From a virus (lineage: Duplodnaviria > Heunggongvirae > Uroviricota > Caudoviricetes): a stretch of 15,658 nt of DNA. The stretch lies in the IMG/VR virus record IMGVR_UViG_2721755662_000003; one strand, written 5' to 3'. Below the pieces are notes generated by a model. The model saw only the letters and a list, made by a program, of their open reading frames with translations, had not been told where the DNA came from and searched no databases. This document shows positions 1 through 12,498 of this stretch, in pieces. Position numbers and translations under genes: made by a program. The stretch's first letter is position 1. The number at the start of each line of letters is the position of its first letter.

Positions 1-1218
1 ATGAACAAACTGAGCGATACCTTGCTAAGGAAACTTCATGGTAAGCCAGCGGAGAAAAACACGTTTTATAGTGATGGCGGAAACCTGAGCGTGAAATATT
101 TAACATCAGGGAAATTGACCTGGTATTTCACATACAGGGCCGGAACGGGAAGGGAGACACGACCCGAACGCATTAAGCTGGGAAGTTATCCTGATCTGAG
201 CCTGAAAGCAGCCAGGGAAAAAGCCGCACAGTGTCGCACATGGCTGGCTGAGGGGAAAAATCCACGTCATGAGATGAATTACACCGTACAGGAAGCGTTA
301 AAGCCCGTAACGGTTGGCGATGCGCTCACCTACTGGCTTGAGTATTACGTAAAGGAAAACCGCGTGGATTATATCGCCCTGAAAAGGCGACTTAATAATC
401 ACGTAATACAGCAGATTGGTGCTATGCCGCTGGATAAATGCGAGCTACGGCACTGGCTGGCCTGTTTTGACCAGGTGGCAAAGCGAACGCCTGTTACTGC
501 CGGATTCGTGCTACAGGCGTGCAAACAGGCGCTTAAGTTCTGCCGTAGGCGGCGCTATGCAATCAGCAACGTTCTGGACGATCTGAACGTTGCGGACGTT
601 GGGAAAAAACCGGATATAAGCGAACGTGTCTTAAGTAACAAAGAACTTGGCGAATTATTGCAGGCACTGGACAAAAAAATATTCTCCCCTTACTACGTCG
701 CGTTAATCCGCCTCCTGATTGTCTTCGGAGCCAGAACGGTAGAACTGAGGTTATCGGAGATCGGGGAGTGGGATTTTACGGAAATGCTATGGACCGTTCC
801 GAAGGAGCACAGCAAAACGAAGGTCGCAATATTCCGGCCCATACCGGAAGCGATCCTGCCGTTCGTCACGCAGCTGGTGGAGCAGAACAGGCACACGGGC
901 TTATTGCTGGGGGAAGTGAAACAGGAGGCCAGCGTATCGCAGTATGGAAGATTAGCGCACAGGAGGCTTAATCACCCTCACTGGTCACTGCATGACATCC
1001 GGCGCACCTTTACAACCATGCTGAACGATTTAGGCGTTGATCCGCATGTCGTGGAGCAGCTTACAGGCCACCAGATGCCAGGAATGCAGCGAGTTTATAA
1101 TCATTCCCGTTATCTGGATGCGAAACGCAATGCGCTGGATATGTGGACGGAGCGGTTAGGGATACTGGCGGGAACACATGAAAACGTAACCACGCTACCC
1201 GTAGCCAGAAGAAAATAA
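1..1218 (+). CDS. int: Tyrosine recombinase, P4-family integrase (405 aa)
   Basis: N-terminal arm-binding-like region (LSDTLLRKL..GKP..YSDGGNLSVKY..WYFTYR..IKLGSYPDLSLKAAREKA) and C-terminal catalytic region with HDIRRTF...GHQ...RVYNHSRY (His/Arg/Tyr pattern of tyrosine recombinases); ORF starts at window position 1. Confidence 0.9.
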   Translation: MNKLSDTLLRKLHGKPAEKNTFYSDGGNLSVKYLTSGKLTWYFTYRAGTGRETRPERIKLGSYPDLSLKAAREKAAQCRTWLAEGKNPRHEMNYTVQEALKPVTVGDALTYWLEYYVKENRVDYIALKRRLNNHVIQQIGAMPLDKCELRHWLACFDQVAKRTPVTAGFVLQACKQALKFCRRRRYAISNVLDDLNVADVGKKPDISERVLSNKELGELLQALDKKIFSPYYVALIRLLIVFGARTVELRLSEIGEWDFTEMLWTVPKEHSKTKVAIFRPIPEAILPFVTQLVEQNRHTGLLLGEVKQEASVSQYGRLAHRRLNHPHWSLHDIRRTFTTMLNDLGVDPHVVEQLTGHQMPGMQRVYNHSRYLDAKRNALDMWTERLGILAGTHENVTTLPVARRK

Positions 1219-1235
1219 TTTTTTTCGTGTTTTTT

Positions 1236-1251
1236 CAGTATGCGCATACTG
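1236..1251. promoter_or_regulatory. Perfect 16-bp palindrome CAGTATGCGCATACTG just downstream of int stop
   Basis: Read directly: cagtatgc/gcatactg is self-complementary; preceded by two T-runs; operator-like or hairpin. Confidence 0.4.
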
Positions 1252-1266
1252 GATATGCGAACAGAT

Positions 1267-1310
1267 ACAACGTGCAACAATGAGCAACAATGTGGAACAA
1301 CTACGAACAA
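1267..1310 (-). repeat. Five direct repeats of ACAA (minus-strand TTGT, mostly TTGTTC/G) with exact 10-bp phasing
   Basis: atACAA cgtgcaACAA tgagcaACAA tgtggaACAA ctacgaACAA at 1267,1277,1287,1297,1307; same motif as arrays at 7899-7949 and 15383-15408. Confidence 0.65.
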
Positions 1311-1405
1311 GAGGCGAAAAAGCGTACGGATTTATAAGTAGCTGATTTTTAATGTGTTACTGGTTTTTTGTACACTAGCGAATCACTCTTTAAAGAGCGA
1401 GAAAA

Positions 1406-1432
1406 AAGGCATGGAACAATATTTTATGCCTT
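1406..1432. terminator. Hairpin AAGGCAT-13 nt-ATGCCTT flanked by A-run and TTTGTATT; candidate bidirectional terminator between int and alpA
   Basis: 7-bp inverted repeat 1406-1412/1426-1432, T-rich flank on both strands. Confidence 0.35.
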
Positions 1433-1583
1433 TGTATTAACATGAATTTAAAAGATTTTATTCTTACTGTTTCATTTTCTGTAAATCATACATCCTCAGT
1501 ATTTGCCATTCATCACTCTAGCGGGAACAATACGACACAATAAGACACCTGATGACTCTTTAAGAAACGAAAGGGGGGCAATA

Positions 1584-1772
1584 GTGTTAAGCACTGATCG
1601 GTTTATACGTGAAAAAGAATGCGAAAAACTAACCGGCCTTAGCCGTACGTGTCGCTACCGCCTGGAAAAGGCCGGACAATTCCCATCACGTCGTAAACTT
1701 GGCGGTCGTTCCGTTGGCTGGTCTTTATCCGAGGTTCTGGCCTGGAAGGATAGCTGCAAGGCAGTTCATTAA
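1584..1772 (+). CDS. alpA: AlpA/Vis-family winged-helix regulator/excisionase (about 62 aa from GTG 1584; maximal ORF from ATG 1503)
   Basis: Sequence LSTDRFIREKECEKLTGLSRTCRYRLEKAGQFPSRRKLGGRSVGWSLSEVLAWKD matches the AlpA pattern; RBS aagggggg 5 nt upstream of GTG 1584. Confidence 0.85.
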   Translation: MLSTDRFIREKECEKLTGLSRTCRYRLEKAGQFPSRRKLGGRSVGWSLSEVLAWKDSCKAVH

Positions 1773-1922
1773 TCACGCTGGCGGCACGCAGCCGCCACAC
1801 ATCAATCATCTGAACACAGAGCTATAACCATGAAGATTGAATATACGCCAGAACGTGGGCGGGGATTCGTTCGCCCTGGTGAAACTGAAAAACAACAAAA
1901 TTGGGGTTTTTCAGGTATAAAA

Positions 1923-1950
1923 AAAGCGGCCCCGAAATGGAGCCGCCTTT
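1923..1950. terminator. GC hairpin (GCGGC-loop-GCCGC) with a 7-T run on the minus strand; probable terminator for the minus-strand small genes
   Basis: aaagcggc cccgaaatgga gccgccttt; A-run on + side gives T-run on minus strand. Confidence 0.4.
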
Positions 1951-2041
1951 CTGAACAGATAACCCGCTGCGCCGTTTGTGTGTGTGATCCCAAACATAAG
2001 CACGGGGATGATAGCCGTTATCAGGCTGGTGGGCAATGCAA

Positions 2042-2230
2042 TCAGTCTGGTTCAGTTCGTTGCCATACCTGCAATGAGCGCTTTTCCCTGTACTCTTTAA
2101 GGAATTGCTCAAGGGCAAAAGCACATGGCGCGAATCTTTCTGATTCATGCTCTATCTTTCTGCGCCGTCTTTTCCGTGCCGGTGATAATGTTTTGGTCAA
2201 TTCTTTATCGGTCATTGTGTTGTCCTGCAT
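2042..2230 (-). CDS. Hypothetical small basic protein (62 aa), in frame with and separated by a single TAA from the upstream RHH-like ORF
   Basis: ORF track; ARKRRRRK basic patch; no recognisable family. Confidence 0.35.
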   Translation of the reverse strand: MQDNTMTDKELTKTLSPARKRRRRKIEHESERFAPCAFALEQFLKEYREKRSLQVWQRTEPD

Positions 2231-2272
2231 AGCAATGCGCCGTAATACCTTACACCACGGCGCTGATGGTGA

Positions 2273-2452
2273 TTACTCTGGTTCTTTGGCCTTGCGCCGC
2301 TGGCGATATTCAACTTCTCGTTTTAATGCCGCAGTAACAAATTGCCCCGTACTTTCGCCAGGCATTTTTACCGCCTCAACATTGTTCATAACTTCATGCG
2401 GAACCCTTGCCGCAACGGTTTGTGATTTTGCGTTTACCGCTTTTGTCGCCAT
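2273..2452 (-). CDS. Small ribbon-helix-helix-like DNA-binding protein (59 aa), candidate island repressor; not in the ORF track because it is under 60 aa
   Basis: Hand translation of minus strand: MATKAVNAKSQTVAARVPHEVMNNVEAVKMPGESTGQFVTAALKREVEYRQRRKAKEPE; beta-strand then two helices pattern typical of RHH; SD GAGGGG 7 nt upstream of ATG; divergent from operator-bearing promoter. Confidence 0.5.
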   Translation of the reverse strand: MATKAVNAKSQTVAARVPHEVMNNVEAVKMPGESTGQFVTAALKREVEYRQRRKAKEPE

Positions 2453-2502
2453 GTGGTGTACCCCTCATAAAAAACAAATGCAGTATGCAGGAAAAAAAAT
2501 AA

Positions 2503-2555
2503 GTGTTCAACACTTGACGTGTTTAACACCTGGGTTTAAATTGGTGTTCAACACC
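2503..2555 (+). promoter_or_regulatory. Early promoter (TTGACG -35 at 2514-2519, 17-bp spacer, TAAATT -10 at 2537-2542) overlapped by three operator dyads GTGTTYAACAC
   Basis: Operators at 2503-2513, 2519-2529, 2544-2554, each GTGTT-N-AACAC; they cover the -35, spacer and start region. Confidence 0.55.
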
Positions 2556-2651
2556 TTGTTGGCGCAAGGTGCAGAAACGACGAAACCCGGCAGTGCGCTA
2601 ACACTAACCGGGCTTCTAACCACCAACGATAGCGAAAGTATCGAGGTAGCT

Positions 2652-2855
2652 ATGAGAAATCATACCACACACCCGCAAGGGCGGGACTCGCACAACCTGA
2701 ATAAATACATCTGGCGTTTTATCGCCCTGAGCACGGCACAACCGCGCGTGATTACCATTGAGGCCACCAGCGAACAGGAAGCACGCCAGCAATCTCCGGC
2801 TGGCTGCGTGATGGTATTCGCTGCCCGTATTCGCCAGGGGTCACATCATGCGTAA
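2652..2855 (+). CDS. Small protein (67 aa), possibly Icd-like/Ash-like family seen in P4-type elements; paralog of 3088-3309
   Basis: RBS gaggt 4 nt upstream of ATG 2652; C-terminal region KYIWRFIALS...IEATSEQEARQQ...VFAARIRQG mirrors second copy. Confidence 0.5.
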   Translation: MRNHTTHPQGRDSHNLNKYIWRFIALSTAQPRVITIEATSEQEARQQSPAGCVMVFAARIRQGSHHA

Positions 2856-2859
2856 AAAC

Positions 2860-3140
2860 CGCTTGCAAAAAATTATCACGGGGCTGTATGCTTCCCCCGT
2901 CGCCCACATGGCGACCGGGTTTGACAGCCTGAATACATCTGGCGGACAGCCGCCCACATCCGATAAGCGGTTTTTTTGTGTCCGTAAACCTACCCATACC
3001 CGCATTATGGCGGGGCGTAACGGGGGAGCCTTTGTGCTCGCTGGTTTCCAGATGACCAGTCTGTCAACCCTGTTACGTCTCGCCACCATGTTTGACAGCG
3101 TAGTAGCGAGACTCCTTAAAATTCATCTGGGAGCCTTTCA
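2860..3140 (+). promoter_or_regulatory. Structured leader between the two paralogous small genes: nested stem-loops, repeated GTTTGACAGC and GCCCACAT motifs, terminator-like GCGG+T7
   Basis: GGCTGT(2872)...CCCGTCGCC cacat GGCGACCGGG...ACAGCC(2930); GGCGG acag CCGCC (2932-2945); aagcgg ttttttt (2956-2967); CTGTCAA(3062)/TTGACAG(3092); GTCTCGC(3077)/GCGAGAC(3107). Confidence 0.35.
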
Positions 3141-3309
3141 CATGGCTGTATCCGCACGCCCTTATTTTGTCTGGCGCTTTATGCAGTGCCTGACAGACAG
3201 CATTGCAATATTCACCGTTACCGCTGCCACTGAGCGCGAAGCACGTGCACAGCTGCCGCACGCACATCTGATTTTTGTCGCCCGTATTCGTCAGGGGGTA
3301 GGCTTATGA
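3088..3309 (+). CDS. Small protein, paralog of 2652-2855 (start uncertain: ATG 3088 or ATG 3142)
   Basis: PYFVWRFMQCL...TVTAATEREARAQL...IFVARIRQG parallels first copy; the N-terminal half of the 153-aa track ORF is probably not coding. Confidence 0.5.
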   Translation: MFDSVVARLLKIHLGAFHMAVSARPYFVWRFMQCLTDSIAIFTVTAATEREARAQLPHAHLIFVARIRQGVGL

Positions 3310-3536
3310 GTCAGGAAATCACACTACAACAGGCAGCAGAACGCGCCCACCAAATCGAAGTTATTTGCGCACTGGCAGAGGATTACCCTGGCATGATGAC
3401 CGACAGCGAATCAGGGGCAATCATCGGCTTACTTAAACGCCTTAGCGGTGAGGTCTGCGTATTCCTGAGCGATGAACAGGAAAGAAGAACGCTTATTTCT
3501 AACGAAAAAAAATGCGGAGGGGTACATGTGCAATAA
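3306..3536 (+). CDS. Hypothetical protein (76 aa), early operon
   Basis: ORF track; start overlaps previous stop (ATGA coupling). Confidence 0.5.
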   Translation: MSQEITLQQAAERAHQIEVICALAEDYPGMMTDSESGAIIGLLKRLSGEVCVFLSDEQERRTLISNEKKCGGVHVQ

Positions 3537-3747
3537 AACCACACCGGACGCAGCCGCCGCCGCGCTCACTACGCTGATGCACGCGCTTATTGATATTTCT
3601 GTTATTGCTGACAGGGCGCATAAACACGCAGCCAGAGAATCAGAATGCATCTTCCATTTAGCATTTGTGCAGCTAAAAGCCGATCAGGCACTGGATAAGG
3701 CCGGAAAAATTATCATGGCTGATGTGCAGGAGGTGCACCATGCATAA
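3527..3747 (+). CDS. Hypothetical protein (about 73 aa from ATG 3527; track start 3472)
   Basis: SD ggagggg 7 nt upstream of ATG 3527; overlaps flanking genes by a few nt. Confidence 0.5.
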
Positions 3748-4105
3748 TCTGTCAATTTCTGACCTTAACAGCATTCAGTTTGATGAGAAATTTACCGGGC
3801 AGTTGCTGGTCAATGTGGAGAACGGGCGCATAGTGCGTAATTATCACCTGCCGGATGGTGCAATTGCCGGAAGCGTTGAAGCATTGCTGGAACTGGCGGA
3901 ACGTGCGCGACTGATTAAGCCGTCAACGAGCCATCACGATGATGATCTGCATTTTACCGGATGTATGGTGAGTCACTACGAAAACGGCGTCGAGGTATCC
4001 TGTGAACGGCTGCGTGATGATTGCTGTTTCGGCACACTGCCGGAATTTATCGAGTTGCTGACCAGTTGCGGTTATCAGGTCATTCAGGGGGGTAAACATG
4101 CGTGA
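3740..4105 (+). CDS. Hypothetical protein (about 121 aa from ATG 3740; track start 3722)
   Basis: SD aggagg 8 nt upstream of ATG 3740; stop overlaps next start. Confidence 0.55.
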   Translation: MHNLSISDLNSIQFDEKFTGQLLVNVENGRIVRNYHLPDGAIAGSVEALLELAERARLIKPSTSHHDDDLHFTGCMVSHYENGVEVSCERLRDDCCFGTLPEFIELLTSCGYQVIQGGKHA

Positions 4106-4331
4106 TGATCGTTTTAATTCCCTGAAACAGGAATTTTCCGGCGTTCCTGATGATGCGGCTGATGCGCTTTCGTCAATGCCAGAACTTATTAGAGCGGCTT
4201 TTTTCTTACTTTCCACGAGAGAATATAAATCAACGGGGCTTGATGTACTGAATATCGCCGCCGATTATGCGGAATATGTGGCAGAGGCGCGTTATAGAAG
4301 AAAATTTCCTGAGGATGTAAGCCATGCGTGA
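4098..4331 (+). CDS. Hypothetical protein (77 aa)
   Basis: ORF track; translational coupling to neighbours. Confidence 0.5.
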   Translation: MRDDRFNSLKQEFSGVPDDAADALSSMPELIRAAFFLLSTREYKSTGLDVLNIAADYAEYVAEARYRRKFPEDVSHA

Positions 4332-4557
4332 TATTTACCACGAAACAATAGACCGCGCATTTCTTGCACTTTCTCACAGTGAAAACATGCTGGAAATATT
4401 GCGCATATGGCTTGAAACACTTGGCGACAATGAACGCGACAAACAAAAATCAAGAATTGCCACGGCATCAATAACGCTTCTTGAGCCTGTAATAATGGAA
4501 CTGCAAGAAATAGATCTATTGCACGACAGATATAAAGAACAGCACACCGGAGAATAA
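4324..4557 (+). CDS. Hypothetical protein (77 aa)
   Basis: ORF track; translational coupling to neighbours. Confidence 0.5.
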   Translation: MRDIYHETIDRAFLALSHSENMLEILRIWLETLGDNERDKQKSRIATASITLLEPVIMELQEIDLLHDRYKEQHTGE

Positions 4558-4562
4558 AAATA

Positions 4563-4862
4563 ATGAAACTTAAATATTCTGGCTTAACTGCCAGTGGCAA
4601 CACTCACCCTAAATTTACGCGCGGCGATATTTACCGCGACCAGTACGGCGGCACGGTAATGATTAAGGGCGTGGAAGAACGGCGCGTAACCTACCGCCGT
4701 GAAGGTTACGAATATGATTGCGTGATGCCTGTTTATCAGTTCCGGCGTGATTTTTCTCTGGTACAGACCGCGCCGCATAACGTGTCCACCAGCAACGCCA
4801 GGGCACGGGCAAACATCCAGAAGCTGAAAACCATGATTAACGGATTCAGGGGTAAAAAATGA
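4563..4862 (+). CDS. Hypothetical protein (99 aa) immediately upstream of and overlapping primase start
   Basis: ORF track; stop overlaps primase ATG (ATGA). Confidence 0.5.
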   Translation: MKLKYSGLTASGNTHPKFTRGDIYRDQYGGTVMIKGVEERRVTYRREGYEYDCVMPVYQFRRDFSLVQTAPHNVSTSNARARANIQKLKTMINGFRGKK

Positions 4863-6613
4863 AACTGGCACCGAACGTAAAACAGCAGTCACGCGGCATA
4901 AAACACAAAGAAACAGAAGTCATTATTTTTGCGGGTAGTGATGCCTGGTCACACGCAAAACAATGGCAGGAACATGACGCGCGTATGGCCGGAGATAATG
5001 AGCCTCCTGTGTGGCTTGGGGAGCAGCAGTTATCCGAACTGGATAAGCTGCAAATTGTGCCGGAAGGCAGAAAATCCGTGCGCATATTCAGGGCCGGATA
5101 TCTTGCGCCAGTAATGATAAAGGCGATTGGTCAGAAGCTGGCGGCGGCAGGCGTACAGGATGCAAATTTTTACCCTGATGGTATGCACGGTCAGAAGGTG
5201 GAGAACTGGCGCGAATATCTGGCCCGTGAGCGCCAGAATCTTTCTGATGGTCTGGTCATTGAGCTTCCGGTAAAGCAAAAGGCGCAACTTTCGCAGATGG
5301 CGGACAGTGAGCGCGCGCAGCTGCTTGCCGATCGCTTTGATGGCGTTTGCGTACATCCTGAAAGTGAAATCGTTCACGTATGGCGCGGCGGGGTATGGTG
5401 TCCGGTCAGCACAATGGAACTTAGCCGCGAAATGGTGGCGATCTATTCAGAGCACAGGGCCACTTTCAGCAAGCGCGTAATCAATAACGCCGTGGAAGCG
5501 TTAAAAGTTATTGCCGAACCAATGGGCGAGCCGTCCGGCGATTTGTTGCCGTTCGCCAATGGTGCGCTTGACCTGAAAACGGGGGAATTTTCCCCGCACA
5601 CGCCGGAGAACTGGATCACCACGCACAACGGCATTGAGTACACGCCACCAGCACCAGGGGAGAACATCCGCGATAACGCGCCAAACTTTCATAAATGGCT
5701 TGAGCACGCAGCCGGAAAAGACCCGCGCAAGATGATGCGTATATGTGCCGCGCTGTACATGATTATGGCGAACCGGTACGACTGGCAGATGTTTATTGAG
5801 GCCACCGGAGACGGCGGGAGCGGTAAAAGTACATTCACACACATAGCCAGCCTTCTGGCAGGGAAACAGAACACGGTAAGCGCTGAAATGACATCGCTTG
5901 ATGATGCTGGTGGACGTGCGCAGGTTGTCGGGAGTCGTCTTATCGTCCTGGCTGACCAGCCGAAATATACAGGCGAAGGAACGGGCATCAAGAAAATCAC
6001 GGGCGGTGACCCCGTGGAAATTAACCCGAAATACGAAAAGCGTTTCACGGCGGTAATCAGGGCGGTGGTGCTGGCGACCAACAATAACCCGATGATATTC
6101 ACCGAACGGGCCGGAGGTGTGGCACGTCGTCGCGTGATTTTCCGTTTCGACAATATCGTCAGTGAGGCCGAAAAAGACAGGGAGCTACCGGAAAAGATCG
6201 CGGCTGAAATCCCTGTCATTATCCGCCGATTGCTGGCGAACTTTACCGACCCTGAGAAGGCACGGGCTTTACTACTGGAACAGCGTGACGGTGATGAAGC
6301 TCTGGCAATAAAGCAACAGACGGATCCGGTTATTGAGTTTTGCCAGTTCCTGAATTTTCTGGAGGAAGCACGCGGCCTGATGATGGGCGGCGGTGGCGAT
6401 TCAGTGAAGTACACGACCAGAAACAGCCTTTACCGCGTCTATCTGGCGTTTATGGCGTACGCAGGCAGGAGCAAACCGCTAAACGTAAATGACTTTGGCA
6501 AGGCTATGAAGCCAGCCGCGAAAGTTTACGGACATGAATATATTACGCGGAAAGTTAAGGGAGTAACGCAGACTAACGCAATAACAACAGACGAGTGCGA
6601 CGCGTTTTTATAA
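4859..6613 (+). CDS. Replication protein: P4-family primase C-terminal type (D5_N-like region plus SF3 helicase NTPase), 584 aa
   Basis: Walker A GDGGSGKST, Walker-B-like LIVLADQP, D5_N-like region LPFANGALDLKTGEFSPHTPENWITTHNGIEY; followed directly by iteron ori. Confidence 0.85.
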   Translation: MKLAPNVKQQSRGIKHKETEVIIFAGSDAWSHAKQWQEHDARMAGDNEPPVWLGEQQLSELDKLQIVPEGRKSVRIFRAGYLAPVMIKAIGQKLAAAGVQDANFYPDGMHGQKVENWREYLARERQNLSDGLVIELPVKQKAQLSQMADSERAQLLADRFDGVCVHPESEIVHVWRGGVWCPVSTMELSREMVAIYSEHRATFSKRVINNAVEALKVIAEPMGEPSGDLLPFANGALDLKTGEFSPHTPENWITTHNGIEYTPPAPGENIRDNAPNFHKWLEHAAGKDPRKMMRICAALYMIMANRYDWQMFIEATGDGGSGKSTFTHIASLLAGKQNTVSAEMTSLDDAGGRAQVVGSRLIVLADQPKYTGEGTGIKKITGGDPVEINPKYEKRFTAVIRAVVLATNNNPMIFTERAGGVARRRVIFRFDNIVSEAEKDRELPEKIAAEIPVIIRRLLANFTDPEKARALLLEQRDGDEALAIKQQTDPVIEFCQFLNFLEEARGLMMGGGGDSVKYTTRNSLYRVYLAFMAYAGRSKPLNVNDFGKAMKPAAKVYGHEYITRKVKGVTQTNAITTDECDAFL

Positions 6614-6619
6614 TTTTTT

Positions 6620-6860
6620 GTAATTGCTGTCTACCCTGTCTACCTGAGTAAAGAAAAATACATTTAATTCAGTGCATTAAGTTAGGTAGATAACCTTTTT
6701 TTACTGTCTACCCACTATCTACCCTCTCTACCTGATTTTACCTGAATCAGACAGGGAGGTAGACACGGGGTAGATAGTGGATAAAAGCACTCTACCCCGC
6801 TGAAAGCCGCGCCATTACTGGTATGAGGGCCACTAAGGTAGATAAGGTAGACAAGGGGAG
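6620..6860. repeat. Iteron-type replication origin: at least 11 copies of the core TCTACC/GGTAGA (octamer YRTCTACC) in both orientations with AT-rich spacers
   Basis: tgtctacc at 6628, 6637, 6706; tatctacc 6717; tctctacc 6726; ctctaccc 6791; inverted copies ggtaga at 6685, 6758, 6771, 6838, 6847; AT-rich tracts 6611-6620, 6650-6680, 6692-6702. Confidence 0.7.
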
Positions 6861-6901
6861 GCACAACTCAAAACTTTTTAAACGAGGGGGTAAAAATAAA
6901 T

Positions 6902-7180
6902 ATGCACACTTCAGGGAAATTTAATAAATCACTCAAAAAACGCAGAGACAGAACAGAACCGAAATATCGCGCGTTAGACATGACAGAGCACGCTTTAAAG
7001 GTGGCAATCAGAACGATAGACCGCCACGCGGGGGAAGGATACGCGAAAGCACATCCCGAACTGATAAGCGCATTCATGACCACGACGGCGGCAAATTTTG
7101 CCACGCTGACAGAGCGGGAGATTGCCGAAGCGGAACAGGTAACAACCATCAACGTTAAAACCGGAGAGGTGGAATCATGA
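6902..7180 (+). CDS. Hypothetical protein (92 aa), first gene of SSB operon
   Basis: SD gaggggg upstream of ATG 6902; stop overlaps ssb start. Confidence 0.5.
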   Translation: MHTSGKFNKSLKKRRDRTEPKYRALDMTEHALKVAIRTIDRHAGEGYAKAHPELISAFMTTTAANFATLTEREIAEAEQVTTINVKTGEVES

Positions 7181-7587
7181 CAGCACAGATAGCAGCTTAC
7201 GGGCGGCTGGTGGACGACCCGCAGGTAAAACAGACCAGCAAGGGTACACCGATGACGCTGGCGCGTATGGCGGTATCGCTGCCATGCAGCCAGGCACAGG
7301 ATGGACAGGCGACGTTATGGCTATCGGTCATCGCATTTGGTAAGCAGGCCGACTTCCTGGCTAAACATCAAAAAGGCGACGTTGCCAGCGTATCCGGCAC
7401 GATGCAGGTCAGCCAGTGGACCGGACAGAACGGGGAAACGCGGCAGGGTTATCAGGTTATTGCAGACAGCGTAATCAGTGCCCGTGCGGCACGTCCTGGT
7501 GGGAGCCGACGCAAGACCACAGGCACACAGGGTAATCAGCCACCAGCGGGAGGCGATGACCCTTACGGTGATGATATTCCGTTCTGA
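7177..7587 (+). CDS. ssb: Single-stranded DNA-binding protein (136 aa)
   Basis: OB-fold region similar to E. coli SSB (WLSVIAFGKQAD vs WHRVVLFGKLAE), Gly/Pro-rich linker, acidic C-terminal tip ending DDIPF. Confidence 0.85.
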   Translation: MTAQIAAYGRLVDDPQVKQTSKGTPMTLARMAVSLPCSQAQDGQATLWLSVIAFGKQADFLAKHQKGDVASVSGTMQVSQWTGQNGETRQGYQVIADSVISARAARPGGSRRKTTGTQGNQPPAGGDDPYGDDIPF

Positions 7588-7599
7588 GGGGTGGGGACG

Positions 7600-7872
7600 A
7601 TGGTACATGACCGCATAGCGGAAGAACTGGAGGCGAAAGGCTTTTACCGGAGAGCGTCGGCGCGATGGGGTGAAGTCATGCAACTGGTGGAGACAGACAA
7701 GGAACGGCATCACATCACGATGCGACGGCTGGAATGTTCCAGGAAGGCACAGAGGCCACCGGAGCCGCCGGATAACTACGGAGACCTGAAAAAGGCGGTC
7801 GATCGCACTTATGCCGAAATGGGTATGGATGGTGCTGGTAATGAAATATGGCGAAATTACCAGGACAGATAA
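7600..7872 (+). CDS. Probable PerC-family transcriptional activator (about 90 aa from ATG 7600)
   Basis: N-terminal MVHDRIAEELEAKGFYRRASARWGEVM matches my recollection of the PerC/Pch motif; SD gaggggtgggga upstream. Confidence 0.5.
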   Translation: MVHDRIAEELEAKGFYRRASARWGEVMQLVETDKERHHITMRRLECSRKAQRPPEPPDNYGDLKKAVDRTYAEMGMDGAGNEIWRNYQDR

Positions 7873-7878
7873 TCACAC

Positions 7879-7902
7879 AGCCGGAGCAATCCGGCTTTTT
7901 GT
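7879..7902 (+). terminator. Rho-independent terminator: AGCCGGA-GCAA-TCCGGCT then TTTTTGT
   Basis: 7-bp GC-rich stem, GNRA-type tetraloop, T-run immediately 3'. Confidence 0.75.
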
Positions 7903-7949
7903 CATGTTTTGTAAATTATTTGTTCGTGGTTGTTCCACGTTGTTCACTG
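7899..7949 (+). repeat. Five 10/11-bp-phased TTGT repeats (ttgtca, ttgtaa, ttgttc, ttgttc, ttgttc) upstream of the capsid operon
   Basis: TTGT at 7899, 7909, 7920, 7930, 7940; same motif as 1267-1310 (opposite strand) and 15383-15408. Confidence 0.65.
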
Positions 7950-8000
7950 AGCGGATCGGCATATTTTACCCGAACTGAATCATGATTATTCTCGCCCGTG

Positions 8001-8158
8001 GTGCCAGGACGCTGGGGCCACTTTTCCGCCTGTTAATGTTCTCGCCAATATTCATTACCAGGCGGGAAAACGATCGGTGCGATTGCTGATTTCCTTATGA
8101 AAAACGGTTGAGTTTTTGCCGCGTCCTGGAGTTCCTTACTTAACCCCAGGACTTTTTT
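8001..8158 (+). promoter_or_regulatory. Structured untranslated leader of the capsid operon: nested inverted repeats and a hairpin plus T7 run ending 2 nt before the capsid ATG; no SD
   Basis: TTTTCCGCCTG(8022-8032)/CAGGCGGGAAAA(8059-8070); CCAGGACGC(8004-8012)/GCGTCCTGG(8121-8129); TCCTGG(8124-8129)/CCAGGA(8146-8151) followed by CTTTTTTTA. Confidence 0.4.
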
Positions 8159-8159
8159 T

Positions 8160-9317
8160 ATGCCGAGAATAATCGAATTACGCCAGCAGAAAACCGCCAT
8201 TAAAAATCAGATGCGCGACATGCTGGAGAACGCGGAAAAAGAAAACCGCAGTCTTAACGATGCTGAGGGCGCAAAATTTGACGAATTACGCGCTAAAGCT
8301 GAATCCCTCGATAAAGACATTTCCCGCCTTGAAGCCATTGCAGACGAAGAGCGCAGCAAGCCAGGTAAAAGCAGTCAGACCACTGACCCAGCCGAACTAC
8401 GTCACTACATTCTGACAGGTGAAACCCGCGCATTAAGTACAGGCGTTCCCGCTGATGGTGGTTATACCGTTATCCCCGAACTGAACACCGAAATCATGCG
8501 AATGCTGACGGATGAATCCACCATGCGCCGCATCTGTACCGTGAAGAAAATCAGCAGCAACGAGTTTAAGCAGCTTGTTTCCGCTGGCGGTGCGACCGTT
8601 AACCACGGTGAAGAGGGTAAGGCACGCGAACAGACCAGCACCCCGCAGATTAACGAGGTGAGCATTAAGCTGTATCCGGTCTATGCGTACCCGCGCACCA
8701 CGCAGGAAATCGTGGATTTTTCCGATGTGGACATCCTTTCATGGCTGACGGGCGAGATTGGCGACAACTTCACGGAAACCGAAGAAAGCGATCTGGTTGT
8801 GGGCGACGGTGACAAAAAAGCAAAAGGCTTTTTATCCGTACCCCGTGCAGAGAAGAACGACAAAGAGCGTGATTTTGGTACGTTGCAGGTAATTAAACCT
8901 TCCGAATCTCTGGCGTGGACATCTGCGGACCCGCTGATCGACCTGAAATTTGCATTACGTAAAAAATACCGCAAAAACGCGGTCTGGGTGGTTAACTCCA
9001 CGACGGCGGCAAAACTTCAGAAGGTGAAGAACGCGAACGGTGATTACATCTGGCGCGACCGTTTACAGGCGGGTGATCCTGATACGTTACTGGGCCTTCC
9101 GGTCGAATATCTGGAGTTTATGCCGGATAACGTTATTGCCCTGGGTGACTTCAAACGCGGTTACTACATTGTTGATCACGAAACAGGTGTTCGCACCAGA
9201 CCGGACAACCTCACAGAGCCGGGCTTCATCAAAATTTTCACGCAGAAATATTTAGGCGGTGGCGTGGTGGATTCGAACGCGATCAAGATTCTGGAACTGC
9301 CACAGGACGACGATTAA
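8160..9317 (+). CDS. Major capsid protein, HK97 fold, with N-terminal coiled-coil delta (scaffold) domain; 385 aa
   Basis: N-terminal 100 aa charged/helical (delta-domain-like), remainder typical HK97-family MCP; same length as HK97 gp5; prohead protease gene follows. Confidence 0.9.
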   Translation: MPRIIELRQQKTAIKNQMRDMLENAEKENRSLNDAEGAKFDELRAKAESLDKDISRLEAIADEERSKPGKSSQTTDPAELRHYILTGETRALSTGVPADGGYTVIPELNTEIMRMLTDESTMRRICTVKKISSNEFKQLVSAGGATVNHGEEGKAREQTSTPQINEVSIKLYPVYAYPRTTQEIVDFSDVDILSWLTGEIGDNFTETEESDLVVGDGDKKAKGFLSVPRAEKNDKERDFGTLQVIKPSESLAWTSADPLIDLKFALRKKYRKNAVWVVNSTTAAKLQKVKNANGDYIWRDRLQAGDPDTLLGLPVEYLEFMPDNVIALGDFKRGYYIVDHETGVRTRPDNLTEPGFIKIFTQKYLGGGVVDSNAIKILELPQDDD

Positions 9318-9327
9318 CAGCATACAG

Positions 9328-9356
9328 AAGGGGCTTAAAAGCCCCTTTAGTGTTTT
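9328..9356 (+). terminator. Hairpin AAGGGGC-ttaaaa-GCCCCTT followed by T-rich tract after capsid gene (probably a partial terminator)
   Basis: 7-bp stem read directly; U-tract interrupted (TTTAGTGTTTTAT). Confidence 0.5.
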
Positions 9357-9929
9357 ATGGGTGAAAAAATTATGAAGAGTATGGAAATCCGGTCATCGGA
9401 AATCACTACCAGCGGAGCCGGTACGCTGACGGGCTACGTTGTTCGCTGGGATAAGCTTTCAGAACTGCTATGGGGGGAGTTTTACGAAAAATTCCAGCGG
9501 GGGGCGTTTACTGAGTGGCTTGCGGCGGGTAATGACGTTCGCGGCCTGTATGAGCATGACCACAGCATGTTACTGGGGCGCACCCGTTCCGGCACGCTGA
9601 AACTGGAAGAGGACGAAACAGGGTTACGCTTTGAACTGACCCCACCGGATACCAGTACAGGGCGCGACGTTATCGAACTGGTTAAGCGTGGGGACATCTC
9701 GGGGATGAGCTTTGGCTTTCGCTCCCGTAAGGATGTATGGGATACCACAACAGATCCATGCGTGCGCACCGTGCTGGTGGCGGAACTGTACGAAATTACC
9801 GTTACATCGGTACCGGCTTACCCCGATTCCGGCGTGGAGCTGGCCCGCCGTTCCCTGTATGAGCAGCACCCCGAAAAAATGCCGCGTGCGGATAATCGCC
9901 GCTGGTGGGTGGATTTAGCGGGGGTGTGA
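9357..9929 (+). CDS. Prohead maturation protease, HK97 family (start may be ATG 9372)
   Basis: Motifs YVVRWDK, GLYEHDH, GLRFEL, DISGMSFGF typical of HK97-type prohead proteases; positioned between capsid and portal. Confidence 0.85.
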   Translation: MGEKIMKSMEIRSSEITTSGAGTLTGYVVRWDKLSELLWGEFYEKFQRGAFTEWLAAGNDVRGLYEHDHSMLLGRTRSGTLKLEEDETGLRFELTPPDTSTGRDVIELVKRGDISGMSFGFRSRKDVWDTTTDPCVRTVLVAELYEITVTSVPAYPDSGVELARRSLYEQHPEKMPRADNRRWWVDLAGV

Positions 9930-9930
9930 T

Positions 9931-11142
9931 ATGTGGCCTTTCAGAAGAAAAAAAGAGCAGCGCAGCATGACGCTGGATGAATTTATGGCGCTGGCTGGCA
10001 CATCGAACACGGGGGCGGGTGAGTACGTATCATCGGGGACAGCGGAATCACTGCCCGCCGTCATGAACGCCGTGACGGTCATCTCTGAGGCGGTGGCTAC
10101 CATGCCGTGTTACCTGTACCTGGTACGCAATGAGAAGGGGAAGGAGGCCCGCGAGTGGCTTGATTCTCATCCGGTCGATCACATCCTCAACGAGCGCCCG
10201 AACGCATGGCAAACCCCCTACCAGTTTAAGCGAATGATGATCCGCCACTGCCTGTTAAACGGTAATGCTTATGCGGTGATTCAGTGGGGGCGTGATGGTT
10301 TTCCGGCGGCTTTACATCCTTACCCGCCGCAGTCGGTGAACGTGGAGCAGACAGGCGAACACAACTGGCGCTACTGCATCACTGACGCCTACACCGGAAA
10401 CACCCGCAACTATTTACCGTGGGAAGTACTTCACCTTCGTTACTCCACGGATGACGGCTTTATGGGGCGCTCACCTGTAACCATCTGCCGCGAATCGCTG
10501 GGGCTTGGGCTGGCCCAACAACGCCACGGCGCGAGCGTGATGCGTGATGGCATGATGGCGGCAGGGGTTATCACGTCAGGCGAATGGCTGGACGGCGTGA
10601 AGGGCAAACAGGCATTAGCCGCACTGGAACGCTACAAAGGGGCCAGAAACGCCGGAAAAACGCCCATCCTTGAAGGGGGTATGAGCTATCAGCAGCTGGG
10701 CATGAGTAATCAGGATGCTGAATGGCTGGCCTCCCGTCGCTTCACCATTGAAGACATCGCCCGAATGTTCAACGTCTCGCCGATTTTTTTGCAGGAATAC
10801 AGCAACAGCACCTACAGCAATTTCAGCGAGGCAAGCCGCGCATTTCTCACCATGACGATGCGCCCGTGGCTGGCGAACTTTGAGCAGCAGATAAAAAACG
10901 CCCTGCTGGTGGCCTCGCCTGTACCTGGTATCCGGTATCAGGTGGAGTTTGACAGCGCGGACCTGTTACGGGCCACACCTGGCGAACGCTTTGCCACCTA
11001 TGAGCGCGGCATCAAATCCGGCGTTATGTGTCCGAACGAAGCCCGCGAACGTGAAGGTCTGTCACCGCGTGATGGTGGTGATGAGTTCAGCCAGGCATGG
11101 AAACAGGAAGTAAAAATCAGCGAGGGAGAAAAACCGGAATGA
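9931..11142 (+). CDS. Portal protein, HK97 family (403 aa)
   Basis: Conserved portal segments NGNAYAVIQW, RRFTIEDIARMFNVSPIFL, MRPWLANFEQQI. Confidence 0.9.
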   Translation: MWPFRRKKEQRSMTLDEFMALAGTSNTGAGEYVSSGTAESLPAVMNAVTVISEAVATMPCYLYLVRNEKGKEAREWLDSHPVDHILNERPNAWQTPYQFKRMMIRHCLLNGNAYAVIQWGRDGFPAALHPYPPQSVNVEQTGEHNWRYCITDAYTGNTRNYLPWEVLHLRYSTDDGFMGRSPVTICRESLGLGLAQQRHGASVMRDGMMAAGVITSGEWLDGVKGKQALAALERYKGARNAGKTPILEGGMSYQQLGMSNQDAEWLASRRFTIEDIARMFNVSPIFLQEYSNSTYSNFSEASRAFLTMTMRPWLANFEQQIKNALLVASPVPGIRYQVEFDSADLLRATPGERFATYERGIKSGVMCPNEAREREGLSPRDGGDEFSQAWKQEVKISEGEKPE

Positions 11143-11477
11143 ACATAGGGCGACTGCGTGACAGGATAACGATTCAGACCCTGAAACAGACCAGGGATAT
11201 AACCGGCGAAATACTCGAAACGTGGGAGGACGGTCACACACTCTGGGCAAGCGTGAACATGGTCAGCAGCAAGGAGGCCATTTCATCGGGCGCAGAGCTG
11301 GCGATTGGTACCGTAAGGATCTGGATACGGTACCGGAAGGACATCAACGCCACCAGCCGGATAAAGGTCAGTACGGGGCCGCTGGCGGGGCGTGTACTGA
11401 ATATCATCGGGCAGCCGCTGCCGGATGCCGCCAGGACACGCCTTGAAATTCTTTGTCGTGAGGGCGCGGAAAAATGA
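11139..11477 (+). CDS. Head-tail adaptor / head closure protein (about 112 aa from ATG 11139 overlapping portal stop)
   Basis: MNIGRLRDRITIQ...WASV...IRYRKDI pattern of phage head-tail joining proteins; ATGA overlap with portal stop. Confidence 0.7.
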   Translation: MNIGRLRDRITIQTLKQTRDITGEILETWEDGHTLWASVNMVSSKEAISSGAELAIGTVRIWIRYRKDINATSRIKVSTGPLAGRVLNIIGQPLPDAARTRLEILCREGAEK

Positions 11478-11770
11478 CAGAAGAACTTATCACCCTGGAA
11501 GAAGTGAAACTCCATTGCCGCATCGATGGCGACGATGAAGACCAGTTAATCAGCGGATACATTGCCGCATCGCTTGAGGCGTGCCAGATACACATAGGCA
11601 GGCGCTTTGATGACGGGCTGGAGTTCACGCCAGCCATAAAGATTGGCTGCATGATGTTTATCGCTCACCTGTATGAAAATCGCCAGATTGTCGCGGATAA
11701 CGCAAAAACACGCGTACCCATGACGATAGGCGCACTCTGGACGGCTTACCGTGATGTGGGGGTGTACTGA
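11474..11770 (+). CDS. Head-tail connector protein, gp6-like (98 aa)
   Basis: LITLEEVKLHCRIDGDDEDQLISGYIAAS...YENRQ matches gp6-like connector N-terminal pattern. Confidence 0.7.
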   Translation: MTEELITLEEVKLHCRIDGDDEDQLISGYIAASLEACQIHIGRRFDDGLEFTPAIKIGCMMFIAHLYENRQIVADNAKTRVPMTIGALWTAYRDVGVY

Positions 11771-12210
11771 TGCCGTGGCAACCATTAAGACGATGCACAG
11801 AACCAGGCTGTAACAGGCGCGTTAAATCCGGCAAGTGTGAGGAGCACAGGCGGGCGGCATGGCGTGCAGAGGATGCCAGACGAGGACACCGCCGCGCGCG
11901 TGGATATTCCAGACAGTGGGACAAATACCGCGCCATGTATCTGAGTAAAAACCCGTTATGCGTGCGATGCCTTGAGAAGGGGATATATACGCCCGCCGTG
12001 GTGGTGGATCACATTATCCCGATTAATGGCGGTGATGATGTTCTCTTCTGGCCCGAATGGAACCATCAACCATTGTGCCAGGCGTGTCATAACCAGAAAA
12101 CGAAATGGCTTGATCCGGCAACAAAAAGCAAGCGTGCCGCAGGTGGATTTCGTGAAGAGGAAGAACGGGCCGCTAACCGCAATAACTGGATGTATGACGC
12201 TGATGAATGA
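11770..12210 (+). CDS. HNH endonuclease associated with terminase (146 aa)
   Basis: Cys pairs CxxC...C...C with VDHIIPI and NHQPLCQACHNQKT (HNH motif); sits immediately upstream of TerS as in cos-type HK97-like packaging modules. Confidence 0.85.
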   Translation: MPWQPLRRCTEPGCNRRVKSGKCEEHRRAAWRAEDARRGHRRARGYSRQWDKYRAMYLSKNPLCVRCLEKGIYTPAVVVDHIIPINGGDDVLFWPEWNHQPLCQACHNQKTKWLDPATKSKRAAGGFREEEERAANRNNWMYDADE

Positions 12211-12376: not shown

Positions 12377-12379
12377 TGA

Positions 12380-12440
12380 GGCTGTATGACGGGGTGGGGG
12401 GCGTTTTCAGGACAAACCCGACCCCGCCGGGCACCGAACG
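12380..12440. other. Candidate cos/packaging site: G-run and C-run rich segment between HNH and terS
   Basis: acggggtggggggcg ... cccgaccccgccgggc; position matches where cos lies in HK97-type phages that use HNH+TerS+TerL. Confidence 0.3.
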
Positions 12441-12498
12441 CCTCCTCAAATTTTTATGCACGGGAATTTTTTGAAAAATAATCTGACGAAAAATAAGC

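What the first reader, a model, noticed from the sequence alone, without database searches (positions are those of the whole stretch)
4859..6860. Primase-helicase with its iteron origin immediately 3' of the gene
The 584-aa protein has the P4-family primase C-terminal architecture (D5_N-like region plus Walker A GDGGSGKST helicase). Within 250 bp downstream, the hexamer core TCTACC/GGTAGA occurs at least 11 times in both orientations between AT-rich tracts, the layout of PICI/SaPI-type origins. The N-terminal 200 aa of the protein is not a primase domain I recognise and could be a novel priming or ori-recognition domain.
Basis: partly seen in the sequence, partly recalled or inferred. Interest (0 to 1): 0.5.

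Follow-up and report, generated by a model that had tools for sequence, protein, structure and literature searches.

The report
Known PICI replication initiator and origin
This is the replication module of an E. coli phage satellite (a helicase-initiator gene followed by its repeat-built origin); it is 99% identical to one already shown by experiment to drive replication, so it is real but ordinary.

Summary
A 584-aa ORF (4859-6613, +) has D5_N, a P-loop NTPase (Walker A GDGGSGKST) and a Pox_D5-type C-terminal domain. Exactly 11 TCTACC/GGTAGA cores lie at 6630-6851, where about 0.1 are expected.

The module is already known. The protein is 581/584 identical to the "Pri-Rep" of EcCICFT073, and the intergenic region aligns closely with all 11 cores kept. 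Fillol-Salom et al. 2018 showed that this pri-ori segment supports plasmid replication and needs both gene and ori. The window itself is a capsid-forming PICI inserted in tqsA.

Residues 141-579 are 40% identical to phage P4 alpha residues 324-762 (helicase plus the solved origin-binding winged helix, PDB 1KA8).

The unrecognised N-terminus (about 130 aa, not 200) replaces alpha's Zn-ribbon/Toprim primase. It is a small alpha/beta fold with only a weak Toprim resemblance and no conserved catalytic acidic residues.

It does not set origin specificity. The same N-domain (91% identical) on a DUF927 helicase goes with TAACCCGCA iterons, while Reps with a 43% identical N-domain but the same helicase and C-terminal domain keep TCTACC. 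This domain is fused to four helicase families, and its function is unknown.

Low interest; already known.

The parts
4563..4862 (+). DUF4222 gene. Its stop overlaps the rep start by 4 nt (ATGA), so it is probably translationally coupled to rep. Function unknown.
   Evidence: ORF list. Pfam DUF4222 E 1.6e-24. Overlap read from the sequence. A DUF4222 gene sits directly upstream of the N-domain Rep in 10 of 11 E. coli loci examined (not in L008).
4859..6613 (+). rep ('pri-rep'): 584-aa replication initiator and SF3-type helicase of the island.
   Evidence: 581/584 identical to EcCICFT073 Pri-Rep. 40% identical to P4 alpha aa 324-762. Matches SaPI5 PriRep5 (PDB 7OLA) over aa 194-432.
4859..5248 (+). 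N-terminal domain (aa 1-130). An uncatalogued alpha/beta domain with a weak Toprim resemblance and no conserved catalytic acidic residues. It is shared among four helicase families.
5315..5704 (+). D5_N domain (aa 153-282).
   Evidence: Pfam PF08706, E 1.1e-15.
5804..6109 (+). P-loop NTPase core (DUF5906, aa 316-417), with Walker A GDGGSGKST at nt 5807-5833.
   Evidence: Pfam PF19263, E 5e-10. Sequence.
6320..6595 (+). C-terminal winged-helix domain (aa 488-579). Predicted to be the iteron-binding domain.
   Evidence: phmmer match to PDB 1KA8, deposited as 'putative P4-specific DNA primase', E 7e-7. Its identity as the P4 alpha origin-binding domain is from my own knowledge. Pfam Pox_D5. The domain is 58-99% identical in every island with TCTACC iterons and 33% identical in the TGTTCACC island.
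6614..6901 (.). Intergenic region that forms the replication origin (ori).
   Evidence: Aligns closely with the region 3' of EcCICFT073 pri-rep (3-sequence alignment, mean column identity 98%). That pri-ori segment was shown to be needed for plasmid replication (PMC6092414). No terminator and no convincing promoter.
6628..6732 (+). Left iteron arm. Cores at 6630+, 6639+, 6685-, 6707+, 6718+, plus an extra central copy at 6727+.
6645..6684 (.). AT-rich 40-bp spacer (GC 22%). Probable DNA-unwinding element.
   Evidence: An AT-rich stretch lies at the same position in related origins. Fillol-Salom 2018 proposed the AT-rich region between iteron sets as the melting site.
6723..6759 (.). Central inverted repeat (arms 6723-6737 and 6745-6759) at the dyad centre of the array.
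   Evidence: I5. Sub-threshold hairpin-like Rfam hits reflect only this palindrome.
6758..6853 (-). Right iteron arm, the mirror image of the left arm. Cores at 6758-, 6769-, 6791+, 6837-, 6846-.
   Evidence: Start-to-start spacings are 9, 46, 22, 11, 9, 31, 11, 22, 46, 9.
6800..6820 (.). Conserved GC-rich block CTGAAAGCCGCGCCATTACTG inside the right 46-bp spacer. Role unknown.
   Evidence: 19 of 21 positions are invariant across five origins whose other spacers have diverged. No conserved hairpin.
6902..7180 (+). 92-aa gene of unknown function (phrog_1231), first gene after ori.
   Evidence: Found at the same position in related islands.
7177..7587 (+). Island-encoded single-stranded DNA-binding protein.
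   Evidence: NCBIfam TIGR00621, E 1.7e-15. Annotated as SSB.

Best explanation
This is the autonomous replication module of a phage-inducible chromosomal island (PICI). Here the island is a capsid-forming PICI inserted in tqsA. The 584-aa protein is the island's Rep, a P4-alpha-type SF3 helicase that also acts as initiator.

Proposed mechanism:
- The C-terminal winged-helix domain (aa 488-579) recognises the repeat T-R-TCTACC-Y.
- Eleven copies lie directly 3' of the gene as two mirror-image arms. Copies within an arm are 9-11 bp apart.
- Rep subunits bound to the arms assemble into hexamers, probably one per arm, melt the AT-rich 40-bp spacer (6645-6684) and load themselves on the DNA without a separate loader.
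- Host DnaG and Pol III, helped by the island's own SSB, then copy the excised circle.

The first ~130 aa stand where P4 alpha has its Zn-ribbon/Toprim primase. They form a separate, uncatalogued alpha/beta module with at best a degenerate Toprim fold and no conserved metal-binding acidic residues. It does not set origin specificity. It most likely acts as a non-catalytic adaptor or regulatory module common to PICI initiators.

Shown by published experiment on a 99%-identical module: the gene and the ori are both needed for plasmid replication. Shown here: homologies, repeat statistics and the way iterons follow the modules. Inferred: iteron binding by the C-terminal domain, double-hexamer assembly, melting site, priming by the host, and the role of the N-domain.
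For: Identity with the tested system:
- EcCICFT073 coordinates come from Table S1 of PMC6092414 and were fetched as L003.
- The protein is 581/584 identical, and all 11 cores are kept in the aligned ori.
- The paper reports that pri-ori on pKO3-blue gives colonies at 44 C, that the rep mutant gives none and that the ori deletion significantly reduces them. [quoted passage not shown]

Helicase and initiator homology:
- 40% identity to P4 alpha aa 324-762.
- PDB 1KA8 aligns to aa 488-579, and SaPI5 PriRep5 (7OLA) to aa 194-432.
- SaPI Reps are SF3 self-loading helicases whose C-terminal winged helix binds iterons just downstream of rep, around an AT-rich centre (PMC9371898).

Repeats behave as protein-binding units:
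- 11 cores where 0.11 are expected.
- The cores are invariant in origins whose spacers have diverged.
- In the O157 Anguil island all 11 copies changed their flank together, from T-R to C-C, while the C-terminal domain differs only at N544A, G547S and E579D; E579D is shared with CFT073.

Specificity follows the helicase and C-terminal module:
- N-domain 91% identical on a DUF927 helicase: TAACCCGCA x11.
- N-domain 66% identical on RepA/AAA_25: GTGGG-core repeats x9-11 (8-mers such as AGTGGGGA x5-7).
- N-domain 65% identical on a closer P4-alpha homologue: TGTTCACC.
- N-domain only 43-49% identical on the same helicase and C-terminal domain: TCTACC x11.

N-domain:
- Control: Pfam finds Zn_Ribbon_Prim and Toprim_3 in P4 alpha and in the Morganella protein, and nothing in the window's N-terminus.
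- Across the family only E20, I23, A25, G26, A29, P50, L53, L58, G80 and I90 are invariant. In the model, the positions after strand 1 (A25-G26) and strand 3 (A79-G80-Y81), where Toprim enzymes carry Glu and DxD, hold no acidic residue.
Against: No experiment was done on this exact sequence. There are 3 aa differences and some ori substitutions relative to CFT073. The published ori deletion reduced colony numbers rather than abolishing them, and I did not recover its exact limits.

Iteron binding by the C-terminal domain is inferred from homology and covariation, not measured.

Absence of canonical residues does not prove absence of priming activity.

The double-hexamer model rests only on the dyad layout. 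The two arms are also unequal: one spacer is AT-rich, the other GC-rich.
Confidence: 0.85

Rival explanations
1. The N-terminal domain is a working but unconventional primase, so the protein really is a primase-helicase as annotated.
For: The domain sits where P4 alpha has its primase. The best structural neighbours, though weak, are DnaG-type primases. There is a weak profile hit to a phage 'DNA primase' PHROG. The literature calls the gene pri-rep. E20 is invariant and E115 nearly so.
Against: There is no Zn-ribbon. There is no Toprim Glu or DxD at the structurally expected positions, and no acidic cluster is conserved across the family. There is no Pfam Toprim hit at E<=10, while the positive controls score 1e-13. 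At about 130 aa the domain is too small to hold a DnaG-type RNA-polymerase core. The 'primase' names derive from helicase-region models.
Confidence: 0.12
2. The N-terminal domain is the origin-recognition domain.
For: It has no assigned function, and it lies in a protein that must recognise the origin.
Against: A 91%-identical N-domain goes with completely different iterons (TAACCCGCA) on a DUF927 helicase. N-domains only 43-49% identical go with the same TCTACC iterons when the helicase and C-terminal domain are the same. The C-terminal domain matches the solved chain 1KA8, which I know as the P4 alpha origin-binding winged helix.
Confidence: 0.03
3. The repeat array is not the origin itself. 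It would be a P4 crr-like replication enhancer, or an operator array that controls the downstream SSB/packaging operon, with initiation elsewhere.
For: In P4 the iteron cluster directly 3' of alpha is crr, not ori. The array sits just upstream of the next gene and no terminator intervenes.
Against: The window holds the whole island and has only one other TCTACC, inside int at 738, so there is no second cluster to serve as ori. The CFT073 rep-plus-ori fragment supported plasmid replication and its ori deletion reduced it. The same iterons accompany Rep in islands with different packaging modules: lambda-like capsid in CFT073 and Nissle, HK97-like here. No convincing promoter was found.
Confidence: 0.05

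Closest known systems
EcCICFT073 Pri-Rep and ori (E. coli PICI; Fillol-Salom et al. 2018, ISME J, PMC6092414)
   Same: The protein is 581/584 identical. The ori region aligns closely, with all 11 TCTACC cores at the same spacing. The neighbouring genes are the same: DUF4222 upstream, a small gene of unknown function and SSB downstream. Replication function was shown by experiment for that element.
   Different: The host island differs. The window is a capsid-forming PICI in tqsA with HK97-type capsid, protease, portal, HNH, TerS and TerL. EcCICFT073 is a classical cos-type PICI between ycfD and phoQ.
Phage P4 alpha protein with ori/crr
   Same: The helicase and C-terminal winged-helix domain are homologous (40% identity over 440 aa; the 1KA8 chain aligns to aa 488-579). 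Short iterons occur in both orientations, and one cluster (crr) lies immediately 3' of the gene.
   Different: P4 alpha has a 323-aa Zn-ribbon plus Toprim primase at its N-terminus, while the window protein has an unrelated-looking 130-aa domain. The iteron is TCTACC, not TGTTCACC. There is one cluster instead of ori plus crr.
SaPI Rep / PriRep5 self-loading SF3 helicases and SaPI ori (PMC9371898)
   Same: SF3 helicase-initiator with a C-terminal winged helix. 6-12 iterons lie immediately downstream of rep around an AT-rich region, with opposite orientations on the two sides. The ATPase region shows sequence homology (7OLA, E 4e-15).
   Different: Sequence relationship is distant. SaPI5 PriRep5 (797 aa) is described as a fusion with a putative primase. 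The SaPI AT-rich region is central, whereas here it lies inside the left arm.
Human Twinkle N-terminal primase-like domain (analogy only)
   Different: Twinkle is an SF4 (DnaB/T7 gp4-like) helicase, not SF3. The structural match is weak and no sequence similarity was found.

Membership tests
Gram-negative PICI replication module (rep followed by ori; Fillol-Salom 2018) | Replication initiator/helicase gene in a unidirectionally transcribed island that starts with int and alpA | tested here: met
   int at 1-1218, then an HTH (AlpA-position) gene, Icd-like genes, DUF4222 and rep, all on the + strand.
Gram-negative PICI replication module (rep followed by ori; Fillol-Salom 2018) | [quoted passage not shown] | tested here: met
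   11 cores at 6630-6851 in two mirror-image arms, with an AT-rich tract at 6645-6705.
Gram-negative PICI replication module (rep followed by ori; Fillol-Salom 2018) | The rep-ori fragment drives autonomous replication and needs both parts | not testable with these tools
   Published for EcCICFT073, whose Rep is 99% identical and whose ori aligns closely. Not tested on this exact sequence.
Capsid-forming PICI (cf-PICI, EcCIEDL933 type) | The island encodes major capsid, protease, portal, head-tail connectors, HNH, TerS and TerL but no tail genes | tested here: met
   RefSeq annotation of the identical FORC_069 locus. The capsid protein is 99% identical over the 278 aa compared to that of another E. 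coli island (FORC_044, L004) with the same major-capsid type. Family definition from the bioRxiv paper.
P4 alpha-type primase-helicase | N-terminal Zn-ribbon and Toprim primase domain (EGYATA / DxD motifs) | tested here: not met
   BLASTP aligns only aa 141-579 to alpha 324-762. Pfam finds Zn_Ribbon_Prim and Toprim_3 in alpha and in the Morganella homologue but nothing in the window's aa 1-140.
P4 alpha-type primase-helicase | D5_N plus SF3 P-loop helicase core | tested here: met
P4 alpha-type primase-helicase | C-terminal winged-helix origin-binding domain | tested here: met
   The 1KA8 chain aligns to aa 488-579, E 7e-7. This is sequence homology only; binding was not measured.
P4 alpha-type primase-helicase | Type I iteron TGTTCACC, and a bipartite ori plus crr | tested here: not met
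   The iteron is TCTACC and forms a single cluster. Relatives L008, L014 and L015 do use TGTTCA-type iterons.
Toprim domain (DnaG / topoisomerase type) | Alternating strand-helix alpha/beta fold | tested here: inconclusive
Toprim domain (DnaG / topoisomerase type) | Conserved Glu after strand 1 and DxD after strand 3 | tested here: not met
   Those positions hold A25-G26 and A79-G80-Y81. No acidic residue is conserved there across the family.

The most novel reading that the evidence does not exclude
The ~130-aa N-terminal module may be a previously undescribed, PICI-restricted domain. It has taken the place of the P4-alpha primase, and it has been shuffled onto four different replicative NTPase families: P4-alpha-type D5_N/SF3, DUF927, VapE-like and RepA/AAA_25. 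On this reading it is a helicase-independent adaptor. It would couple any satellite initiator to a shared partner, such as host DnaG or another replisome protein, the co-translated DUF4222 protein, or a helper-phage signal. That coupling would be the common control point of PICI replication.
Probability: 0.3. Interest if true: 0.45.

Novelty: already known. Interest (0 to 1): 0.15.

Why it matters
The finding itself adds little, because this rep-ori module has been described and functionally tested in EcCICFT073.

Three things here may be of modest use.
1. The 'primase' annotation of these PICI Reps rests on helicase-region models. The protein lacks any recognisable primase catalytic domain, so satellite replication probably depends on host priming.
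2. Natural module swaps give a clean genetic argument that iteron specificity lies in the helicase and C-terminal winged-helix part. They also point to two candidate specificity residues, N544 and G547.
3. The conserved N-domain, shared by four helicase families, is an unassigned piece of PICI biology that could be tested directly.

Tried and rejected
- Phage collection (megablast): no match. The element is chromosomal and satellite-borne, not a catalogued phage.
- hhalign of the N-domain alignment against P4 alpha: only the D5_N overhang aligned, so no sequence bridge to alpha's primase was found.
- Foldseek against PDB: no significant hit.
- BFVD: one significant hit, an uncharacterised 112-aa phage protein, plus weak Toprim primases.
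- The afdb50 library was unavailable.
- Full-library phmmer with the N-domain: only 76 clusters, all N-terminal, and none bridging to canonical primases.
- Rfam on 6300-7200: only far-sub-threshold miRNA-precursor hits caused by the central palindrome. Rejected as an RNA gene.
- Promoter and terminator scan: nothing above the shuffle expectation.
- Folding the conserved GC block 6788-6842 as ssDNA, as a possible priming-site hairpin: not better than shuffles in the window, and no structure shared among islands. Rejected.
- A DnaA-box-like TTATCCACT at 6776-6784 is not conserved in the 13P477T or O157 origins, so it is not counted as part of the origin.
- Packaging-site reading of the repeats: rejected, because the same repeats accompany Rep in islands with unrelated packaging modules.
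Full report
**1. Observation.**
The ORF at 4859..6613 (+) is real and 584 aa long. Its translation carries GDGGSGKST at aa 317-325. Pfam places D5_N at aa 153-282, the P-loop family DUF5906 at 316-417 and Pox_D5 at 487-576. NCBIfam TIGR01613 (primase_Cterm, P4 family) covers aa 229-495.

TCTACC/GGTAGA occurs 12 times in the window, and 11 of these lie between 6630 and 6851. Shuffles of the whole window give a mean of 3.7. About 0.11 are expected in those 222 bp, P about 7e-19.
- The unrecognised N-terminal part is about 140 aa, not 200.
- Only the left spacer is AT-rich (6645-6705, GC 22-30%). Its mirror-image partner is GC-rich.
- The repeat unit extends to about T-R-TCTACC-Y.

**2. Where the window comes from.**
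The region is 100% identical to many E. coli chromosomes and has no match among deposited phages. In strain FORC_069 the element interrupts tqsA. Its genes run in this order:
- integrase, an HTH gene, Icd-like genes and small ORFs;
- DUF4222, the 'DNA primase family protein', a small gene of unknown function, SSB and PerC;
- major capsid, prohead protease, portal, head closure, connector, HNH, TerS and TerL.

This is the gene set that defines capsid-forming PICIs (bioRxiv 10.1101/2022.09.08.507074). The capsid protein is 99% identical over the 278 aa compared to that of another E. coli island, in strain FORC_044 next to roxA (L004). The window spans the whole island.

**3. The module is already characterised.**
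Fillol-Salom et al. [quoted passage not shown] They cloned the EcCICFT073 rep gene with the putative ori into a temperature-sensitive plasmid. The rep-ori plasmid gave colonies at the restrictive temperature, the rep mutant did not, and the ori deletion significantly reduced them.

Their Table S1 gives the EcCICFT073 coordinates, and I fetched that locus as L003. Its protein is 581/584 identical to the window protein. The region after the gene aligns closely (three-sequence alignment, mean column identity 98%), with all 11 cores at identical spacing. The Nissle 1917 island at yejM/tRNA-Pro carries the same module at 98% nucleotide identity.

**4. What the protein is.**
Residues 141-579 align to P4 alpha residues 324-762 at 40% identity, E 7e-113. 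This is the helicase and C-terminal part of alpha. A sequence search of the PDB returns two hits:
- 1KA8 aligns to aa 488-579 (E 7e-7). From my own knowledge this is the P4 alpha origin-binding winged-helix domain.
- 7OLA aligns to aa 194-432. This is the SaPI5 PriRep5 cryo-EM structure.

The SaPI literature describes these Reps as SF3 self-loading helicases. Their C-terminal winged helix binds iterons placed directly downstream of rep around an AT-rich region, and ATP is not needed for binding or melting (PMC9371898). The window protein fits that description on every point that can be checked by sequence.

**5. The N-terminus.**
P4 alpha's first 323 aa contain Zn_Ribbon_Prim and Toprim domains. 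So does a 794-aa alpha-like protein from Morganella (L015). The window's aa 1-140 give no Pfam hit even at E<=10, and hhalign finds no similarity to alpha's N-terminus.

An AlphaFold model built on 20 homologues is confident over aa 1-130 (pLDDT 83.6, pTM 0.76). It shows strands and helices alternating over aa 20-129. The structural searches gave the following:
- Foldseek against PDB again puts 2au3 first but is not significant, E 0.064.
- BFVD gives one significant but uncharacterised hit, plus weak Toprim primases.
- One PHROG annotated 'DNA primase' matches aa 43-146 at E 4e-5.

The Toprim relationship is therefore a lead, not a result. What is clear is that the residues a Toprim enzyme needs are absent. 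After strand 1 the family has an invariant A25-G26. After strand 3 it has A79-G80-Y81. Across the diverged family the only invariant residues are E20, I23, A25, G26, A29, P50, L53, L58, G80 and I90. The 'primase' label comes from models of the helicase region. I consider priming by this protein unlikely and priming by host DnaG likely; this is inference.

**6. The N-domain is a mobile module and does not set origin specificity.**
A full scan of 1.84 billion representative proteins finds only 76 clusters with this domain, and it is always at the N-terminus. The full-length members combine it with four NTPase types:
- D5_N/DUF5906/Pox_D5, as in the window protein;
- DUF927;
- VapE-like;
- AAA_25 (RepA-like).

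I fetched eleven E. coli loci and three from other genera, and compared the repeats 3' of each rep gene.

| Islands | N-domain identity to window | Helicase / C-terminal module | Repeats 3' of rep |
|---|---|---|---|
| Window, CFT073, Nissle 1917 | 98-100% | same | TCTACC x11 |
| Shigella flexneri L013 | not computed (whole protein 91%) | same | TCTACC x11 |
| 13P477T, 382634_2f | 43-44% | helicase 92-98%, C-terminal domain 82% | TCTACC x11, same orientations and spacing |
| PapRG-04-4 | 49% | C-terminal domain 58% | TCTACC x11, arms in a different order; a RepA helicase fragment lies downstream |
| FORC_044 | 91% | DUF927 helicase | TAACCCGCA x11 |
| WCHEC020032, 2013C-4225 | 66% | RepA-type | GTGGG-core repeats x9-11 (8-mers such as AGTGGGGA x5-7) |
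| 2013C_3963 | 65% | 49% identical to P4 alpha | TGTTCACC, P4's own type I iteron |
| Serratia aquatilis | N-domain present | P4-alpha-like | CTGTTCAC |
| Morganella morganii | none (true primase domain) | P4-alpha-like, 794 aa | TGTTCAT |

Iteron sequence thus follows the helicase and C-terminal module and is uncoupled from the N-domain in both directions.

In the O157 Anguil island all 11 copies have changed their flank together, from T-R-TCTACC to C-C-TCTACC. Its C-terminal domain differs from the window's at only three positions: N544A, G547S and E579D, and E579D is shared with CFT073.

**7. Anatomy of the origin.**
The core orientations read ++-+++--+--, and the start-to-start spacings are 9, 46, 22, 11, 9, 31, 11, 22, 46, 9. 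The array therefore consists of:
- two mirror-image arms of five copies each (6630-6723 and 6758-6851);
- one extra central copy at 6727;
- a short palindrome at the centre (6723-6759).

This pattern is the same in CFT073 and, within 1 bp, in 13P477T. Paired copies lie 9-11 bp apart, about one helical turn.

The left 46-bp spacer is the AT-rich tract. The right one holds the block CTGAAAGCCGCGCCATTACTG (6800-6820). Of its 21 positions, 19 are invariant in origins whose other spacers have diverged. I could not give this block a role; it does not form a conserved hairpin. No terminator or convincing promoter lies in the intergenic region. The only Rfam hits are far below threshold and reflect the palindrome.

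**8. Mechanism, and how sure each step is.**
- Shown by published experiment on a 99%-identical module: rep and ori are both needed for plasmid replication.
- Strongly inferred: the C-terminal winged helix binds T-R-TCTACC-Y. The evidence is homology to 1KA8, the covariation above and the SaPI precedent.
- Inferred from layout and from SF3 precedents: Rep oligomerises on each arm, melts the AT-rich spacer and loads itself.
- Inferred from domain content: the host supplies priming and polymerisation, and the island's SSB (7177-7587) coats the unwound DNA.
- Unknown: the role of the N-domain. My best guess is a non-catalytic adaptor or regulatory module, possibly a degenerate Toprim. It may work with the DUF4222 protein, whose gene overlaps the rep start (ATGA at 4859-4862) and precedes N-domain Reps in 10 of 11 E. 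coli loci.

**9. Rivals.**
- An unconventional active primase: possible but unlikely, about 0.12.
- N-domain as the origin reader: contradicted by the module comparison.
- A crr-like enhancer or an operator array instead of the origin: unlikely. The island has no second iteron cluster, the CFT073 rep-plus-ori fragment supported plasmid replication, and the repeats travel with Rep rather than with the downstream packaging genes.

**10. Verdict.**
The finding is real and its main interpretation is correct, but it describes an already published and functionally tested PICI replication module. Novelty: already known. Interest is low (0.15). What remains of interest is the uncatalogued N-terminal module shared by four helicase families, together with the observation that these 'primases' lack a primase domain.

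Noticed in passing
window 1-15658 (same as L001 6143-21800); compare L003 and L004: Replication and packaging modules reassort among E. coli PICIs. The window has the EcCICFT073-type Rep and ori joined to a capsid-forming (HK97-type capsid, HNH, TerS, TerL) packaging module. The FORC_044 island has a 99%-identical capsid protein but a DUF927 Rep with TAACCCGCA iterons.
   Followed up: partly
window 6800-6820: The GC-rich block CTGAAAGCCGCGCCATTACTG lies in the right 46-bp spacer of the origin. 19 of its 21 positions are invariant in five origins whose other spacers have diverged. It forms no conserved hairpin and no function could be assigned.
   Followed up: partly
window 6630-6851: The iteron array is a large imperfect dyad. 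Orientations read ++-++ + --+-- and spacings read the same in both directions (9, 46, 22, 11 ... 11, 22, 46, 9). The two 46-bp spacers are unequal: the left one is AT-rich, the right one GC-rich.
   Followed up: yes
window 6776-6784 (minus strand): TTATCCACT matches the DnaA-box consensus at 8 of 9 positions. It is present in the CFT073 and Shigella origins but not in the 13P477T or O157 Anguil origins, so it is probably incidental.
   Followed up: partly
L007 4250-4599 and Rep aa 544, 547: In the O157:H7 Anguil island all 11 iterons carry CC instead of T-R before TCTACC. The Rep C-terminal domain differs from the window's only by N544A, G547S and E579D, and E579D is shared with CFT073. N544 and G547 are therefore candidate specificity residues.
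   Followed up: partly
L008 5816-6110; L014 4268-4560; L015 3863-4150: PICI-like Reps in E. coli 2013C_3963 and Serratia aquatilis, and a full-length alpha-like primase-helicase in Morganella morganii, all have TGTTCA-type (P4 type I-like) iterons immediately 3' of the gene. The layout resembles the window's.
   Followed up: partly
window 4563-4862: The DUF4222 gene overlaps the rep start codon (ATGA). It directly precedes N-domain-bearing Reps of three different helicase types in 10 of 11 E. coli loci examined. It may be a functional partner of the N-domain.
   Followed up: no
one search hits P0033, P0037, P0047, P0083, P0088: Some database proteins join the Rep N-domain directly to an SSB or a PerC domain. 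These probably arise from deletions that remove the helicase and ori, which would make them decayed islands.
   Followed up: no
L010 4217-4940: In the PapRG-04-4 island the two iteron arms are in a different order (orientation -----++-+++), and a RepA helicase fragment follows. This looks like a recombination scar between two Rep/ori types.
   Followed up: no
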